Source: Octopus vulgaris (lineage: Eukaryota). Taken from it: a stretch of 64,000 nucleotides of DNA. The notes under the pieces are model-generated. The model searched no databases. It was not told the origin of the DNA and saw nothing but the letters and a program-made list of their open reading frames with translations. The DNA is taken from NCBI GenBank assembly GCA_951406725.2, contig OX597830.1:6510001-6574000 (forward strand), in the 5' to 3' direction. Shown here piece after piece: positions 15,549-48,576 of this stretch. The position numbers and the translations under genes were made by a program. Position 1 is the first letter of the stretch; every line of letters begins with the position of its first letter.

Positions 15549-15703
15549 CATATATTTGTCTTCAGAGTCGCATATATTTGTCTTCAGAGTCGCATATATT
15601 TGTCTTCAGAGTCGCGTATATTTGTCTTCAGAGTCGCATAAATTTGTCTTCAGAGTCGCATATATTTGTTTTCAGAGTCGCATATATTTGTCTTCAGAGT
15701 CGC
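15549..15703. repeat. Minisatellite, 7 x 22-bp unit CATATATTTGTCTTCAGAGTCG
   Basis: Units start at 15549, 15571, 15593, 15615, 15637, 15659 and 15681, with single substitutions in three units and no spacers. Confidence 0.95.
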
Positions 15704-16230: not shown

Positions 16231-17518
16231 CGAGGGGCGTTCAATAAGTAATGCCCCTGACCCACTTCCCATAGCAGTAGAGCAACGAAACTTGGCACAG
16301 TTATTAGTCTTTTTCTACATAGGAACCACCCAGAGTTATGCATTTCTCTCATTGTTTGATGCAGCTCTGGAGACCGTTTTTATAGAAGACCCCAGCTTGG
16401 TCCTCCGACCTGAACGCGACTTCAGAAATCAAGGCTGCATCATCTGGGAAACGCTTTCCTTTCAAAAACAACTTCATGAGTGGGAAGAGGTGAAAATCAG
16501 AGGGTGCAAGGTCAGGAAAGTAGGGGGATGGGAGAGGAGTTCATAGTCATACGCCTGTGCTTCTGATCTGGCGACAAGCGAGTTGTGGACCGGAGCGTTG
16601 TCCTGCAGGAGGAGGATGCCTTTGCTGATCTTGCCCCGCCTCTTGATTTTGATAACTTCTCTTAATTTCCTCAAAAGTGAAGCATAATAGGCTCCTGCAA
16701 TTGTGGTACCCTTTGCCAGGAAATCTGTCATCACTACTCCGTCCTGGTCCCAGAAGACTGTGAGCATGTCCTTGCCAGCGGAGGGCTGCACCCTTGCCTT
16801 CTTTGGAGGGGGTGAGTCACGGTGCTTCCACTGCATTGACTGGGCTTTGGTCTCTGGATCATCGTGATGGACCCAGGTTTCATCCTGTGTAATCAGTCTT
16901 TTGAAAAAGTTTGACTCATCTTCTTGGCACATTTCCAAATTCATCCTCGAGCACTCGACGCGTTCTTGCTTCTGGAAAGGCGTGAGCAACCTGGGAATCC
17001 ATCGGCAGATACCTTTTGCATATGCAAATGGTCATGAATGATAGTTTCCACAGACCCGGTACTAATCTTGACCTTATGGGCTATTTGGCGAATAGTTATG
17101 CGTCGATCTTCCAAAATGGCAGCCTCAATTGACGGATAGATGCCTCATCAATGGCAGAAGGGGGCGACCAGATCTGGGAGCTGTTTCCACAGAGTTCCGA
17201 CCATGTTTGAATTCACGATGCCAGCGTTTTACAAGGTCATATGATGGGGCATCATCACCATAAGTTACTTTCATTTCATCAAAAGTCTCCCGTGGTGTGC
17301 GTCCTTTCAAATACAAAAACCGGATCACTGCTCGACACTCAACAGGCTCCATTTCACACTTGACTCGGTTCAAACTCCTGTAAATCAGAAACCACAATTA
17401 GCTCAGAGCTGTAATTTGCTACTTACTCTATAGAGATATAAATGATTGCACATGCAGAATTTCAGCTAGATCAAACAACTGCAATGTGTCAGAGGCATTA
17501 CTTATTGAACGTCCCTCG
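16231..17518 (-). mobile_element. Full-length mariner (DD34D) transposon, 1288 bp, TA target duplication
   Basis: TIRs TA|CGAGGGGCGTTCAATAAGTAATGCCCCTGAC and GTCAGAGGCATTACTTATTGAACGTCCCTCG|TA (2 mismatches in 31 bp). Confidence 0.95.
16304..17352 (-). pseudogene. Mariner transposase pseudogene
   Basis: MEPVECRAVIRFLYLKG..RSGRP (HTH), WIPRLLT, ITQDETWVHH, QDNAPVH, YFPDLAPSDF (34 residues between 2nd and 3rd Asp after frame repair). About 3 frameshifts and 1 in-frame stop. Confidence 0.92.
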
Positions 17519-20230: not shown

Positions 20231-20305
<75 letters not shown>

Positions 20306-20431
20306 GTAAAGAGTGAAAAAACTACAGAAGGCTTAAATGTTAAAAAAATATATATATTTGCGTCAATATGTCTGAAGAATATTAGAAAATTAAAAAAAAA
20401 ATTTTTTTTCTCTTATAATGACATAATTTAA

Positions 20432-20470
20432 AAGAAAGACCGGTTTCGCGTGTAGCTTTTCAAATTTCTT
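20432..20470 (-). ncRNA. Minimal hammerhead ribozyme motif (U3:A8 variant), inverted pLTR copy
   Basis: Exact reverse complement of 23284-23322. Confidence 0.55.
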
Positions 20471-20855
20471 GCGACGTTATGTTTATGTTGAATAGAGTTA
20501 TCGTTATGTTTATGTTCAGAAGAGTTCTAAATAAGGGAAGGTAGTGAGTGATTTCTTCCGGTGTAAGGGAGATAATCGCTTAACATTTTTTCCTTTCCCT
20601 TGGTGTGAATTTCTCTGTATCAGTATGTTCGGATGGTTGAGTCTGGGCTTGTACTTTTCAATGAAGAATGTTTCCTTGTTTAGTCTAATTTGTGTTGATG
20701 ATCCGAAAGCACATTGGTAAAATGGAAAGATTAAAAATTGTGGTAGTAGTTGCTTTGCGCATTTCTCAATGTGCTCACTAAAAGGTATCATTCTATATTC
20801 TGGGAATGCAATCTGTTGTCGATGCAGTGTGCATCTGCGCCTGAGTGATAGTCCC

Positions 20856-23174
20856 CAGGGACACCAGGACACAGGCTGGAACCTAGTAATAAGGAGAAAC
20901 CGAAGATAATCAATCTTTCAACCAAACCTCTTTCTAACATAAAAATTGACATCCTCTCAAAAGGGCTCAAATTTACACCAACTCCACGCAGAACCAACCT
21001 AAATGAAATCAAGGATAATATAACAGAATTTTGCAGAAAATTAAGACTAGCAGAAGCATCAACCAGTTTCAATACTGAAGATGAATCACTAGTCAAGAAC
21101 AAAAGTGAACACATCCACACAGAGGAAGAAATAAAGATCTTGATGAATTCTGTAACCACATTGAGAACTTTCCCTACCATACTATACATAAACAGAAAGT
21201 TAACTCAAATTTTAACACTACACAATGGAAAGAGCTGATAGAACTTCAAAATGATGAGGATATAACCATTAAGGAAGCAGACAAGGGAAATGCAGTTGTA
21301 ATAATGGATACATCATACTACAGAAATCTTGTAATTTCCTTACTTGATGACGACCTACATTATGAAAAAAATACCACCTACACCCCACAAAAAATAATGA
21401 AAACTCTATCTTCACTAATTAAAACCCATGAAAAGGAACTAACAACAAACTTTAAATGCAAACCTAGCCTTTTCTATGGTCTGCCAAAAATTCATAAAAG
21501 TCAAATTATAAATGAAACCATTAAAAAATCACCAAAGACATACATACACACACCTAACCCGGGGGACCTAAAACTACGACCCATTGTAGCTGGCCCAACC
21601 TGTGAAACACACAGACTAAGTCTACTTATGGACATCCTCCTGAAACCCTTCCTTAAACATATCGATAGCCATATCAGAGATGACTTAGATATGTTAAACC
21701 ACCTTCCAAAAAAAGCCAAGGAAGAAACAATCCTGGTTTCATTTGATGTAGTTAACTTATATACCAGTATACCTCATAATTATGGACTAGAGGCAATACA
21801 GTTCTGGTTAGATCAATTTCCGGAAGAAATACCAAAAGGATCAGTAAAGAATTCATTACTAAATCAATTGAATTCATCCTACACAATAACCACTTCATGT
21901 TTGACAATACATTTTACCGTCAAAAATCCGGAATTGCTATGGGTACAAGGGCAGCACCAGTCATTGCGAACTTAACAATGGGATACATGGAAATAATCAT
22001 TTACCAGGAATCTTTATCAATCTTTGGAAACCCCCTCTCTCAATACATAAAAGAGAATTGGAAACGATTCTTAGACGATTGTTTTATTCTCTGGAATGAA
22101 AACACAAAAAAACTCCTAAAATTTAAAAACCTATTGAACAGCATAAACCCAAATATACAGTTCACAATGGAATACAACCAAAAGGAGCTCCCGTTCTTGG
22201 ATATACTAATTTAAAAAATTAACCTTAAAATAGAAACAGACATTTTTTACAAAGCCACAGACGCCAAACAATACCTTCTTTTTAATTCATGCCACCCAAG
22301 ACACACTAAAACAAACATCCCCTTCAACCTTGCAAGAAGGATATGCACAATAGTGTCAGAACAAAATACCAGGAACTTTAGACTGCAAGAACTCAAAAAC
22401 ACCCTAATTGACAGACATTACCCAGCTCAACTCATAGAGGATGGGATCAGACGTGCAACAGAAATCAACATAGAAACTTTAAGAAAAGTTCAATACAACA
22501 ACACACCTTCCCCGAAAATACTACCTTACATATCTACATACAACCCCAGAAACAAAGAAGCCTTCACCATCATCACCCAGAATTTACCAATACTTCATAA
22601 AGACCCCAAATTAAAGGAAATTCTAAACATACACCAAATCATTAAAAGCTACAAACAGCCTAAATCACTCAAAAAGATTCTCACAAAGGCAAAATTGTCT
22701 TCTGAAATTACGGATGCAAAAGTAAAAAAATGTGGTAGATCGAACTGTGCAACATGTCCTAACCTGCTAGAAGGATCAGAATTCCTCTTTAAAGAGGGAC
22801 AGAAATTCAAGATCAAATCTAACTTTACTTGTGCCTCTGAAAACATAATTTATGTCATAAAATGCTCGGGCTGCCACCAAGACTACGTGGGTTCCACGGG
22901 ACTATCACTCAGACGTAGATGCACACTGCATCGACAACAGATTGCATTCCCAGAATATAGAATGATACCTTTTAGTGAGCACATTGAGAAATGCGCAAAG
23001 CAACTACTACCACAATTTTTAATCTTTCCATTTTACCAATGTGCTTTCGGATCATCAACACAAATTAGACTAAACAAGGAAACATTCTTCATTGAAAAGT
23101 ACAAGCCCAGACTCAACCATCCGAACATACTGATACAGAGAAATTCACACCAAGGGAAAGGAAAAAAATGTTAA
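20856..23174 (+). pseudogene. PLE reverse transcriptase + GIY-YIG endonuclease ORF, disrupted
   Basis: IINLSTKPLS..ILSKGLKFTP, IKEADKGNAVVIMD, YGLPKIHK, LRPIVAG, SFDVVNLYTSIP, YRQKSGIAMG, KRFLDDCF, FLDILI, SCHPRHTK, linker CGRSNCATC, IIYVIKCSGCHQDYVGST..RCTLH. Frameshifts near 21115 and 21835; in-frame stop at 22212-22214. Confidence 0.93.
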
Positions 23175-23283
23175 GCGATTATCTCCCTTACACCGGAAGA
23201 AATCACTCACTACCTTCCCTTATTTAGAACTCTTCTGAACATAAACATAACGATAACTCTATTCAACATAAACATAACGTCGC

Positions 23284-23322
23284 AAGAAATTTGAAAAGCT
23301 ACACGCGAAACCGGTCTTTCTT
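23284..23322 (+). ncRNA. Minimal hammerhead ribozyme motif (U3:A8 variant) in PLE 3' region
   Basis: AAGAAA-U-[UUGAAAA]-GC UACAC GC-[GAAA]-CCGG-[UC]-UUUCUU: 6-bp stem I with one bulged U, 2-bp stem II, palindromic stem III ACCGGU. PLE pseudo-LTRs are known to carry minimal HHRs. Confidence 0.6.
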
Positions 23323-23491
23323 TTAAATTATGTCATTATAAGAAAAAAAAATTTTTTTTTTAATTTTCTAATATTCTTCAGACATATTGACGCAAATATA
23401 TATATTTTTTAACATTTAAGCCTTCTGTAGTTTTTTCACTCTTTACTATTTTCTATATATTCACCCACGTGCTTTCACAAACCAACTTTCT

Positions 23492-23561
<70 letters not shown>

Positions 23562-47267: not shown

Positions 47268-47456
47268 TCTGTATTTAAGAGATGGGGAATTATGTGCATT
47301 ATTTACATTTGACGTATATTTGTCCACATCAACGTTTCGGCTGATATACCCTCCAGCCTTCATATAGCGTAGTGGATAATAGCGCGGGCTAATAACCCCA
47401 AAATTCCGAGTTCGATTCCAGGCAATAACCTGAATAATAATAATAATAATAATAAT

Positions 47457-47547: not shown

Positions 47548-47653
47548 GCATCGAAAAGGCACCTGATGAAAGCTGGAAGTTATATCAGCCGAAACGTTGT
47601 GTTAACAACAAACAAGATGCGGACAAATATCCGTCAAGTGGAAATAATGTAAA

Positions 47654-47901: not shown

Positions 47902-47945
<44 letters not shown>

Positions 47946-47948
<3 letters not shown>

Positions 47949-48520
47949 GATAAATATCAAAGTGAGTTATATACAGTAGCGGTAACACATCGTGACATAT
48001 TTTTGCCATTTCAATATGGCTAACCCCTAAGGGTGGATGCTACTGTAGTTTTTAGCCCCAGGAGGACACACTCCTCCAGCTGGCCATAGACACACTTTCT
48101 GTGTCCTGTCAGTATTTGCAAAGGGAAGTCATCCTTCCCGTCTTCAACTTATGATACACACGGACTCGAGTTTCGAGGTATTGACCTCTCGTCAGCGTGT
48201 GACAATCATAGTTGTCGGCGAGAATTAGATTTCCTTCACAAATACTTATACTTTTTCCAGCGTCCACTGTCGCTGATATTGAAAAAGTGAAATCAAACAA
48301 TGATAAATATCAAAGTGAGTTATATACAGTGGCGGTAACACATCGTGACGTATTTTTGCCATTTCAATATGGCTAACCCTAAGGGTGGATGCTACTGTAG
48401 TTTTTAGTGTGTCTATGGCCAGCTGGCCATAGGACACAGGAGTGTGTCCTCCTGGGGCTAAAAACTACAGTAGCATCCACCCTTAGGGGTTAGCCATATT
48501 GAAATGGCAAAAATACGTCA

Positions 48521-48524
<4 letters not shown>
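47946..48524 (-). mobile_element. Retrozyme-like / PLE-derived non-autonomous element: 353-nt unit, partial tandem repeat and inverted 5' segment
   Basis: 47948-48056 is repeated at 48301-48407 (period 353), 48408-48524 is an inverted copy of ~47991-48095, the HHR lies in the unique part, and both flanks are (TA)n. Confidence 0.8.
48157..48201 (-). ncRNA. Canonical minimal type-I hammerhead ribozyme
   Basis: Minus strand CACACG-[CUGACGA]-GAGGU CAAU ACCUC-[GAAA]-CUCGAG-[UC]-CGUGUG: all conserved core nucleotides, perfect 6-bp stem I, 5-bp stem II, palindromic stem III ACUCGAGU, GUC cleavage triplet. Confidence 0.88.

Positions 48525-48576
<52 letters not shown>

What the first reader, a model, noticed from the sequence alone, without database searches (positions are those of the whole stretch)
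47946..48524. Fully canonical hammerhead inside a 353-nt tandem unit: candidate circRNA-producing retrozyme
Seen: minus strand 48157-48201 has every conserved HHR nucleotide and perfect stems. The surrounding unit repeats with a period of 353 nt (47948 vs 48301), has no meaningful ORF, carries an inverted 117-bp segment at its 5' side and lies between (TA)n tracts. Established: animal non-LTR retrozymes are short tandem units with one HHR per unit that are processed to monomeric linear and circular RNAs. Inference: the 1.3-unit copy is what reverse transcription of a circular or tandem 353-nt RNA would leave.
Basis: partly seen in the sequence, partly recalled or inferred. Interest (0 to 1): 0.8.

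Follow-up and report, generated by a model that had tools for sequence, protein, structure and literature searches.

The report
Penelope-style inserted hammerhead retrozyme copy
A 579-base non-coding insert in an animal genome carries an intact self-cutting hammerhead RNA motif inside a 353-base repeat unit; it is likely one dispersed copy of a known kind of small parasitic retroelement (a retrozyme), its ends suggest it was pasted in by a Penelope-like element, and whether the family makes RNA circles is untested.

Summary
Minus strand 48201-48157 is a canonical type I hammerhead (Rfam RF00163, 32.2 bits, just under the cut-off of 34). It lies in a 353-nt non-coding unit followed by a 109-nt partial repeat and an inverted arm, between (TA)n tracts. 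In public runs the unit is a large, diverged family; the head-to-tail junction appears in 4 of 4 runs laid (2 of 4 with at least 31 letters on both sides), and one contig is a closed 353-nt cycle. The insertion has the Penelope-like (PLE) footprint: partial tandem, inverted 5' arm, microsatellite target and a 43-nt tail at one end only. An autonomous PLE in the same window shows the same layout with a 44-nt tail. Best reading: a solo copy of a metazoan non-LTR retrozyme, written by a PLE enzyme from a longer-than-unit template. This locus has only one hammerhead, so it cannot release a 353-nt monomer itself; cleavage, expression and circles are untested. A new member of a known kind; the insertion footprint is the only modestly new point.

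The parts
47905..47946 (.). (TA)n tract, left target flank (3' side of the sense RNA)
47946..48298 (-). Full 353-nt non-coding unit, 42% GC; sense strand folds strongly (z -6.1 linear, -6.3 circular)
   Evidence: closed 353-nt cycle in run X17
47946..47988 (-). 43-nt 'tail', present at the left end only; inferred to be the gap between two reverse-transcription start sites (47946 and 47989)
   Evidence: (TA)n loose end before 47989 in 13 contigs of X1
48157..48201 (-). Canonical type I hammerhead; predicted cut between 48163 and 48162 after GUC; palindromic helix III 48164-48171
48141..48216 (-). Predicted extension of stem I beyond an internal loop
48299..48407 (-). Partial second unit (= 47946-48055; two substitutions, one 1-nt gap); no second hammerhead
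48406..48439 (.). Mosaic junction: pieces of 21, 14 and 9 nt from 48076-48107, on both strands, joined at AG overlaps and at an 8-nt palindrome
48438..48524 (+). Inverted 5'-truncated arm, 87 nt (= 47989-48075, one mismatch), ending without the tail
48523..48560 (.). (TA)n tract, right target flank

Best explanation
The insert is a 1.31-unit, single-hammerhead copy of a high-copy 353-nt non-coding repeat family, likely a metazoan non-LTR retrozyme that a Penelope-like element (PLE) enzyme probably reverse-transcribed into a (TA)n tract from a longer-than-unit RNA template. Shown: hammerhead core and stems, period 353, no ORF, the family and its head-to-tail junction in other runs, inverted arm, one-sided 43-nt tail, (TA)n flanks. 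Inferred from known families: tandem source loci elsewhere are transcribed; the hammerheads cut, probably as dimers through the palindromic helix III, to give 353-nt monomers that a host ligase (RtcB in PMC7229834) may close. Inferred from the anatomy plus PMC11167929: a PLE RT/GIY-YIG protein acting in trans nicked both strands of the (TA)n target and started two cDNAs at internal RNA sites 43 nt apart. One ran 462 nt, through an uncut hammerhead and 109 nt past its own start; the other ran 87 nt on the opposite strand; the two were joined by short template switches. This copy has one cut site and would not release a unit-length RNA: it is offspring, not a source.
For: Hammerhead. Period: joint 48298 to 47946 'goes back 353' in 4 of 4 runs laid, with 31 and 106 letters on the short side in X3 and X17 (26 in X1 and X6); X17 record 9 is 383 nt = 353 + 30, the whole unit closed on itself with 3 differences and no gap; three X6 contigs cover the unit with 2 differences at depths 84-104. 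Listed variants avoid the core: 0 of 11 core places vary, 11 of 34 other hammerhead places do (Fisher one-sided p 0.028). PLE footprint: partial tandem, adjacent inverted 5'-truncated copy, a 30-40 bp tail at one end and (TA)n targets are described in PMC8557442; the tail equals the distance between two internal RT starts and both strands are cut and extended in PMC11167929. The inverted arm here ends at 47989, where 13 contigs of X1 also run into (TA)n. The PLE at 20302-23494 has the same layout with a 44-nt tail. Co-folding two copies gives an 8-bp helix III and one correctly folded hammerhead (-43.1 against 2 x -19.2 kcal/mol).
Against: Only one hammerhead at this locus, so it fails the 'active retrozyme' criterion of the 2026 preprint. 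No tandem of two complete hammerhead units was seen directly: a closed assembly cycle can come from a circle, a tandem array or overlapping 1.3-unit copies. As a monomer the predicted fold disfavours the active form (stem II pair probability 0.25-0.31, helix III about 0; hammerhead fold 7.2 kcal/mol above the minimum), though the model ignores core and tertiary contacts. Rfam score is under the gathering cut-off. 8 of 9 Xenopus retrozyme dimers did not cleave in vitro, and for the anole PLE unprocessed RNA was the dominant template. No partner PLE found: the window's PLE shares no 3'-end similarity with the unit (95 of 500 shuffles scored as well). The variant test pools unlinked rows (40 of 41 shown), some from one contig, after an 85% filter. 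Contigs running past the ends of the laid stretch (61 in X1, 33 in X3) are mostly not described, and only 21 of 279 loose-end rows were shown.
Confidence: 0.75

Rival explanations
1. It is the 5'-truncated 3' end of an autonomous PLE whose pseudo-LTR region holds a 353-nt duplication; the hammerhead is that PLE's own.
For: All insertion hallmarks are those of PLEs. Most PLE insertions are 5'-truncated and retrozyme units resemble pLTRs. Summed depth in X1 and X3 falls toward 48210-48298.
Against: In X17 the unit closes on itself in one contig, and in X6 the main variant returns to 47946. Metazoan PLE hammerheads are mostly minimal variants, while canonical ones mark retrozymes. No ORF remnant in the 579 nt.
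Confidence: 0.12
2. Same non-autonomous family and same PLE enzyme, but the template is an uncleaved linear multimer and no RNA circle exists in vivo; the hammerhead cuts rarely or only with protein help.
For: The 1.31-unit copy needs only a tandem transcript. Hammerhead mutants did not affect insertion by the anole PLE in vitro and its hammerhead needed protein. Predicted monomer misfolding here.
Against: Coral, mussel and axolotl retrozymes all accumulate as circles. The core appears conserved across the family. The unit folds as compactly as described circles (z -6.3).
Confidence: 0.25
3. This very locus produces the 353-nt circular RNA (the literal reading of the finding's title).
For: Intact core; within 2-3 differences of the closed variants in X6 and X17.
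Against: One cleavage site only. Two letters of this unit (47997, 48218) are minority or absent in all four runs laid, so a circle from here would be recognisable, and the closed variants in X6 and X17 lack them. No pol III A/B box found.
Confidence: 0.04
4. Assembly artefact or a local DNA duplication and fold-back between microsatellites.
For: Repeat-rich region; such PLE structures trouble assemblies.
Against: The same head-to-tail junction and the same 47989 end occur in runs other than the flagged possible source; the three copies of the repeated part carry their own differences.
Confidence: 0.05

Closest known systems
Metazoan non-LTR retrozymes (Cervera and de la Pena 2020, PMC7229834): coral 220-245 nt, mussel 350-390 nt, axolotl 331 and 353 nt
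   Same: Canonical type I hammerhead with a short helix III and 4-nt loop, unit of about 350 nt, GC under 45%, no ORF, strongly self-paired, high copy number, PLEs in the same genome.
   Different: Here a dispersed 1.31-unit copy with one hammerhead, an inverted arm and a tail, in a (TA)n tract; no target-site duplication can be told. Cleavage and circles were shown for those families and are untested here. Sequence identity to those families was not tested.
Non-LTR retrozymes as non-autonomous PLE derivatives (Li, Clavereau, Pollet 2026, bioRxiv 10.64898/2026.07.22.740005)
   Same: Same proposed mobiliser; solo 'monomer' copies are read there as offspring of active tandems.
   Different: Their evidence is co-occurrence and pLTR homology, mostly in vertebrates; in the parts I read they do not analyse insertion ends. 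Here the link is the insertion anatomy, and no homologous pLTR was found.
EN+ Penelope-like elements (Craig et al. 2021, PMC8557442; Poseidon PAc mechanism, Frangieh et al. 2024, PMC11167929)
   Same: Partial tandem, adjacent inverted 5'-truncated copy, tail at one end, microsatellite target, hammerhead upstream of the internal RT start sites.
   Different: No RT or GIY-YIG ORF; hammerhead canonical, not minimal; tail 43 nt against the 30-40 bp usually cited. Non-autonomous PLEs (MRC1 of Chlamydomonas) are known but from a clade that mostly lacks canonical hammerheads.

Membership tests
Type I hammerhead ribozyme (Rfam RF00163) | Conserved core CUGANGA, GAAA, UH with three helices, stem I open | tested here: met
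Type I hammerhead ribozyme (Rfam RF00163) | Score at the family's gathering cut-off (34 bits) | tested here: inconclusive
   32.2 bits over model 1-45 of 45, E 1.2e-5: just under the cut-off
Type I hammerhead ribozyme (Rfam RF00163) | Self-cleavage | not testable with these tools
   folding favours the dimer form over the monomer
Metazoan non-LTR retrozyme | Canonical type I hammerhead in a unit of 150-450 bp, GC under 50% | tested here: met
   353 nt, 42% GC
Metazoan non-LTR retrozyme | No protein-coding frame | tested here: met
   longest stop-free stretch 66 codons
Metazoan non-LTR retrozyme | Many genomic copies | tested here: met
   4103 and 3254 contigs laid in X1 and X3, spread over 85-100% likeness; no copy number can be read from this
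Metazoan non-LTR retrozyme | Head-to-tail tandems with a hammerhead in each unit | tested here: inconclusive
   1.31 units here; junction in 4 of 4 runs and a closed cycle in X17, but no two-hammerhead tandem seen directly
Metazoan non-LTR retrozyme | Highly self-paired predicted circle | tested here: met
   -114.8 kcal/mol, 63% paired, z -6.3 against 100 shuffles
Metazoan non-LTR retrozyme | Expressed as linear and circular monomers | not testable with these tools
   only contigs were available to lay; they cannot show strand, ends or level
Metazoan non-LTR retrozyme | No PBS or PPT | not tested
   not searched for
'Active' non-LTR retrozyme locus (Li et al. 2026 definition) | [quoted passage not shown] | tested here: not met
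   one hammerhead; filed as a solo copy, not an active locus
PLE-type insertion | Partial tandem with an adjacent inverted 5'-truncated copy | tested here: met
PLE-type insertion | Tail at one end only; microsatellite target | tested here: met
   43 nt (44 nt in the window's PLE), (TA)n both sides; the shorter end recurs in X1
Autonomous PLE | ORF with RT and GIY-YIG endonuclease | tested here: not met
   none in the insert

The most novel reading that the evidence does not exclude
An abundant, recently active retrozyme family, probably of a cephalopod, whose genomic copies record twin-primed rolling-circle reverse transcription of a 353-nt RNA circle by a PLE enzyme: two fixed internal start sites 43 nt apart, synthesis through the ligated cut site and past one full turn. 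That would be insertion-level evidence for the so far proposed PLE mobilisation of retrozymes, and a test system for it.
Probability: 0.35. Interest if true: 0.55.

Novelty: new member of a known kind. Interest (0 to 1): 0.33.

Why it matters
Retrozymes of this size with this ribozyme are known across animals, so the element itself is not a surprise. What adds a little: which enzyme mobilises animal retrozymes was left open in 2020 (PMC7761336: the repeats show no motif that names the partner) and is supported in 2026 by co-occurrence and pLTR homology. A tail and inverted arm on a retrozyme copy is a direct footprint that can be counted across thousands of copies once the host assembly is in hand. 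I found no description of octopus or cephalopod retrozymes in five searches, but the host taxon is not established by my calls and the supplement of PMC7229834, which shows further invertebrate retrozymes, could not be read.

Tried and rejected
No whole genome is held for this window, so copies, flanks, tandems and a partner PLE could not be counted. Expression: no RNA holder listed; X6 and X17 are only guessed to be RNA runs and no silent control stretch was laid, so I draw nothing about transcription from them. Four further rows held none of the words (no proof of absence). Pattern scans for other copies: metagenome contigs 0 and 0, prokaryote genomes 0, viral contigs 0 and 2 loci that share only the 18-19 nt pattern with the unit and were set aside as chance. 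No second copy of the unit in the window. Promoter: no pol III A or B box, no poly(A) signal by simple patterns. The window's PLE as partner: rejected, no similarity. Host taxon: the four hits named for animals are molluscs (two Mytilus, one Saccostrea, one Octopus bimaculoides at 56% identity over 42% of the query); searches with a Tc1-like fragment were uninformative. That the window is octopus-like is my recall of its repeat make-up. The other 87 Rfam rows (mostly microRNA models on (TA)n tracts and hairpins) are all below their cut-offs and were rejected. Earlier findings: none by sequence, by place or by the last word search.

Full report
Observation. The window is animal DNA, rich in microsatellites and transposon remnants. 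On the minus strand, 48201-48157 reads as a type I hammerhead: core C3-U4-G5-A6-C7-G8-A9, G12-A13-A14-A15.1, U16.1-C17; stem I of 6 bp, stem II of 5 bp with a four-base loop, and a minimal helix III inside an 8-nt palindrome. The cut would lie between 48163 and 48162. Rfam RF00163 matches over its whole length at 32.2 bits, E 1.2e-5 for the 1.8 kb searched, under the gathering score of 34; the gathering scan of the whole window returned only a tRNA-like match. My descriptor finds this one site in 64 kb; 0 of 60 shuffled windows gave a hit with equally long stems and 4 of 60 a looser one.

Anatomy. On the plus strand: (TA)n, a 353-nt unit (47946-48298), a repeat of its first 110 positions (48299-48407, two substitutions and one gap), a mosaic of about 30 nt, an 87-nt inverted copy of 47989-48075 (48438-48524, one mismatch), (TA)n. 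The mosaic is made of 21-, 14- and 9-nt pieces of 48076-48107 from both strands, overlapping at AG dinucleotides and an 8-nt palindrome. The longest stop-free frame is 66 codons. The sense unit folds far better than shuffles, linear (z -6.1, 0 of 100 as good) or circular (z -6.3, 63% paired). The direct part is 462 nt, 1.31 units, with a single hammerhead. The left end reaches 47946, the inverted arm stops at 47989: a 43-nt extension at one end only.

The family elsewhere. No genome is held for the window. Of 24 sequencing runs listed, 20 hold 0.68-0.97 of the unit's 34 sampled words; they come from 12 studies, and one is flagged as a possible source of the window. I laid 4 of these 20 (X1, X3, X6, X17; not the flagged one) on the unit at 85% likeness. 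X1 and X3 gave 4103 and 3254 contigs across all likeness bands, so this is a large and diverged family; depth gives no copy number. The joint from 48298 back to 47946 appears in all four runs; X3 and X17 have at least 31 letters on both sides (31 and 106), X1 and X6 have 26. Record 9 of X17 is 383 nt, the whole unit plus a 30-nt terminal overlap, with three differences and no gap: a closed cycle. Three contigs of X6 cover the unit with two differences at depths 84-104. Such a cycle shows an exact 353-nt period but cannot separate an RNA circle, a tandem DNA array and overlapping longer-than-unit copies. In X1, 13 contigs pass from 47989 into (TA)n (consensus agreement 0.65), the same end as the inverted arm here; only 21 of 279 loose-end rows were shown. 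At 47997 and 48218 the window's unit differs from the majority in all four runs, so these are changes of this copy. Within the hammerhead, 0 of 11 core places and 11 of 34 other places show a listed variant (p 0.028); this is weak, because rows are unlinked, some rest on one contig, and the likeness filter biases them. Variants at 48187 and 48176 would together turn an A-U pair of stem II into G-C, but linkage was not shown.

How it likely works. Metazoan non-LTR retrozymes are tandem units of 150-450 bp with canonical type I hammerheads, GC under 50% and no ORF; coral, mussel and axolotl families self-cleave, some better as dimers, and accumulate as circles, with RtcB the likely ligase (PMC7229834; I read parts 2-4 of 6 and passages; its supplement could not be read). 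The unit fits these features. The ends point to the enzyme. PLE insertions are partial tandems with an adjacent inverted 5'-truncated copy, a 30-40 bp tail at one end and microsatellite targets (PMC8557442, passages). For the anole PLE, the protein cuts and extends both DNA strands in AT-rich targets and starts reverse transcription at two internal RNA sites whose spacing is the tail (PMC11167929, parts 1-2 of 4). The autonomous PLE at 20302-23494 of this window (RT motifs, CX4CX2C linker, GIY-YIG) shows this layout with a 44-nt tail. Read the same way, the insert's polarity puts the hammerhead on the template strand, and the insert is the product of two cDNAs: one from 47946 running 462 nt through an uncut hammerhead and past its own start, one from 47989 running 87 nt on the other strand, joined by template switches among the hairpins at 48063-48107. 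The template therefore exceeded one unit: a circle copied for more than one turn, or an uncleaved multimer. These steps are inferred.

Against. With one cleavage site this locus cannot release a monomer, and it fails the 'active' definition of the 2026 preprint, which needs two consecutive units with complete hammerheads and treats solo copies as offspring (10.64898/2026.07.22.740005, parts 1-3 of 5). That study found cleavage in only 1 of 9 dimers tested. As a monomer this hammerhead is predicted to misfold (stem II probability 0.25-0.31; active fold 7.2 kcal/mol above the minimum), while two copies pair through the palindrome and fold one correct hammerhead, as described for short-helix-III motifs (PMC4209133, parts 1-2 of 4); nearest-neighbour folding ignores the core's own contacts. 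For the anole PLE, unprocessed RNA was the dominant template in vitro, so a 1.3-unit copy needs no circle. No partner PLE was found: the window's PLE is unrelated at its 3' end (95 of 500 shuffles as good). The reading that this is the truncated end of an autonomous PLE is disfavoured by the closed cycle and the canonical hammerhead (metazoan PLE motifs are mostly minimal) but not excluded without the assembly. Expression was not tested.

Novelty. The kind is known, and PLE mobilisation has been proposed (PMC7229834; PMC7761336, passages) and supported by co-occurrence and pLTR homology (2026 preprint). Five library searches (listings only, apart from the papers named here) showed no description of cephalopod retrozymes or of tails on retrozyme insertions; the word 'tail' does not occur in the 2026 preprint, and a 2026 Octopus vulgaris repeat annotation has no occurrence of 'ribozyme' or 'retrozyme' (PMC13282606, passages). 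The library lacks most subscription papers and I could not see the supplements. The host is probably an octopus by my recall of such genomes; my calls support only a mollusc-like PLE. Two earlier notes of this scan describe similar 339-341-nt retrozymes in sea squirts (unchecked AI notes).

Verdict. A real canonical hammerhead in a solo, PLE-style insertion of a high-copy retrozyme family. New member of a known kind; interest 0.33. The one-sided 43-nt tail and inverted arm are the part worth following up across the family.

Noticed in passing
window 20302-23494 (+): Frameshifted autonomous-type PLE (RT with DKG and RFLDD motifs, CX4CX2C linker, GIY-YIG), with an inverted 5' arm at 20302-20855 and a 44-nt tail at the 3' end only, between microsatellites; the linker suggests the Neptune or Nematis clade. 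My scan found no hammerhead in it. A 98% identical protein is in the collection (P0001).
   Followed up: partly
window 47297-47363 (-) and 47566-47649 (+): Two short, 71% alike remnants in opposite orientation with degenerate CUGAUGA...GAAAC motifs resembling minimal PLE hammerheads, 300-600 bases left of the finding and unrelated to its unit.
   Followed up: partly
loose ends at 48139-48143 and joints: Diverged subfamilies in X1, X3 and X17 keep the stem I 3' arm and cut site of the hammerhead but differ next to it; X3 holds a shorter-period variant (48279 back to 47998) and X1 and X3 a short internal repeat (48186 back to 48109).
   Followed up: no
window 59337-59399 (-): tRNA-like match (Rfam RF00005, 29.9 bits); probably the head of a tRNA-derived SINE, not checked.
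   Followed up: no
window 10478-10846 (-), 16474-17031 (-), 40275-40715 (+), 1388-1708 (+): Frames that look like Tc1/mariner transposase fragments (first three) and a LINE RT fragment (last), judged by eye; homology searches with the first gave one distant hit.
   Followed up: partly
window 15549-15703: Seven copies of a 22-nt minisatellite, 95% matches.
   Followed up: no
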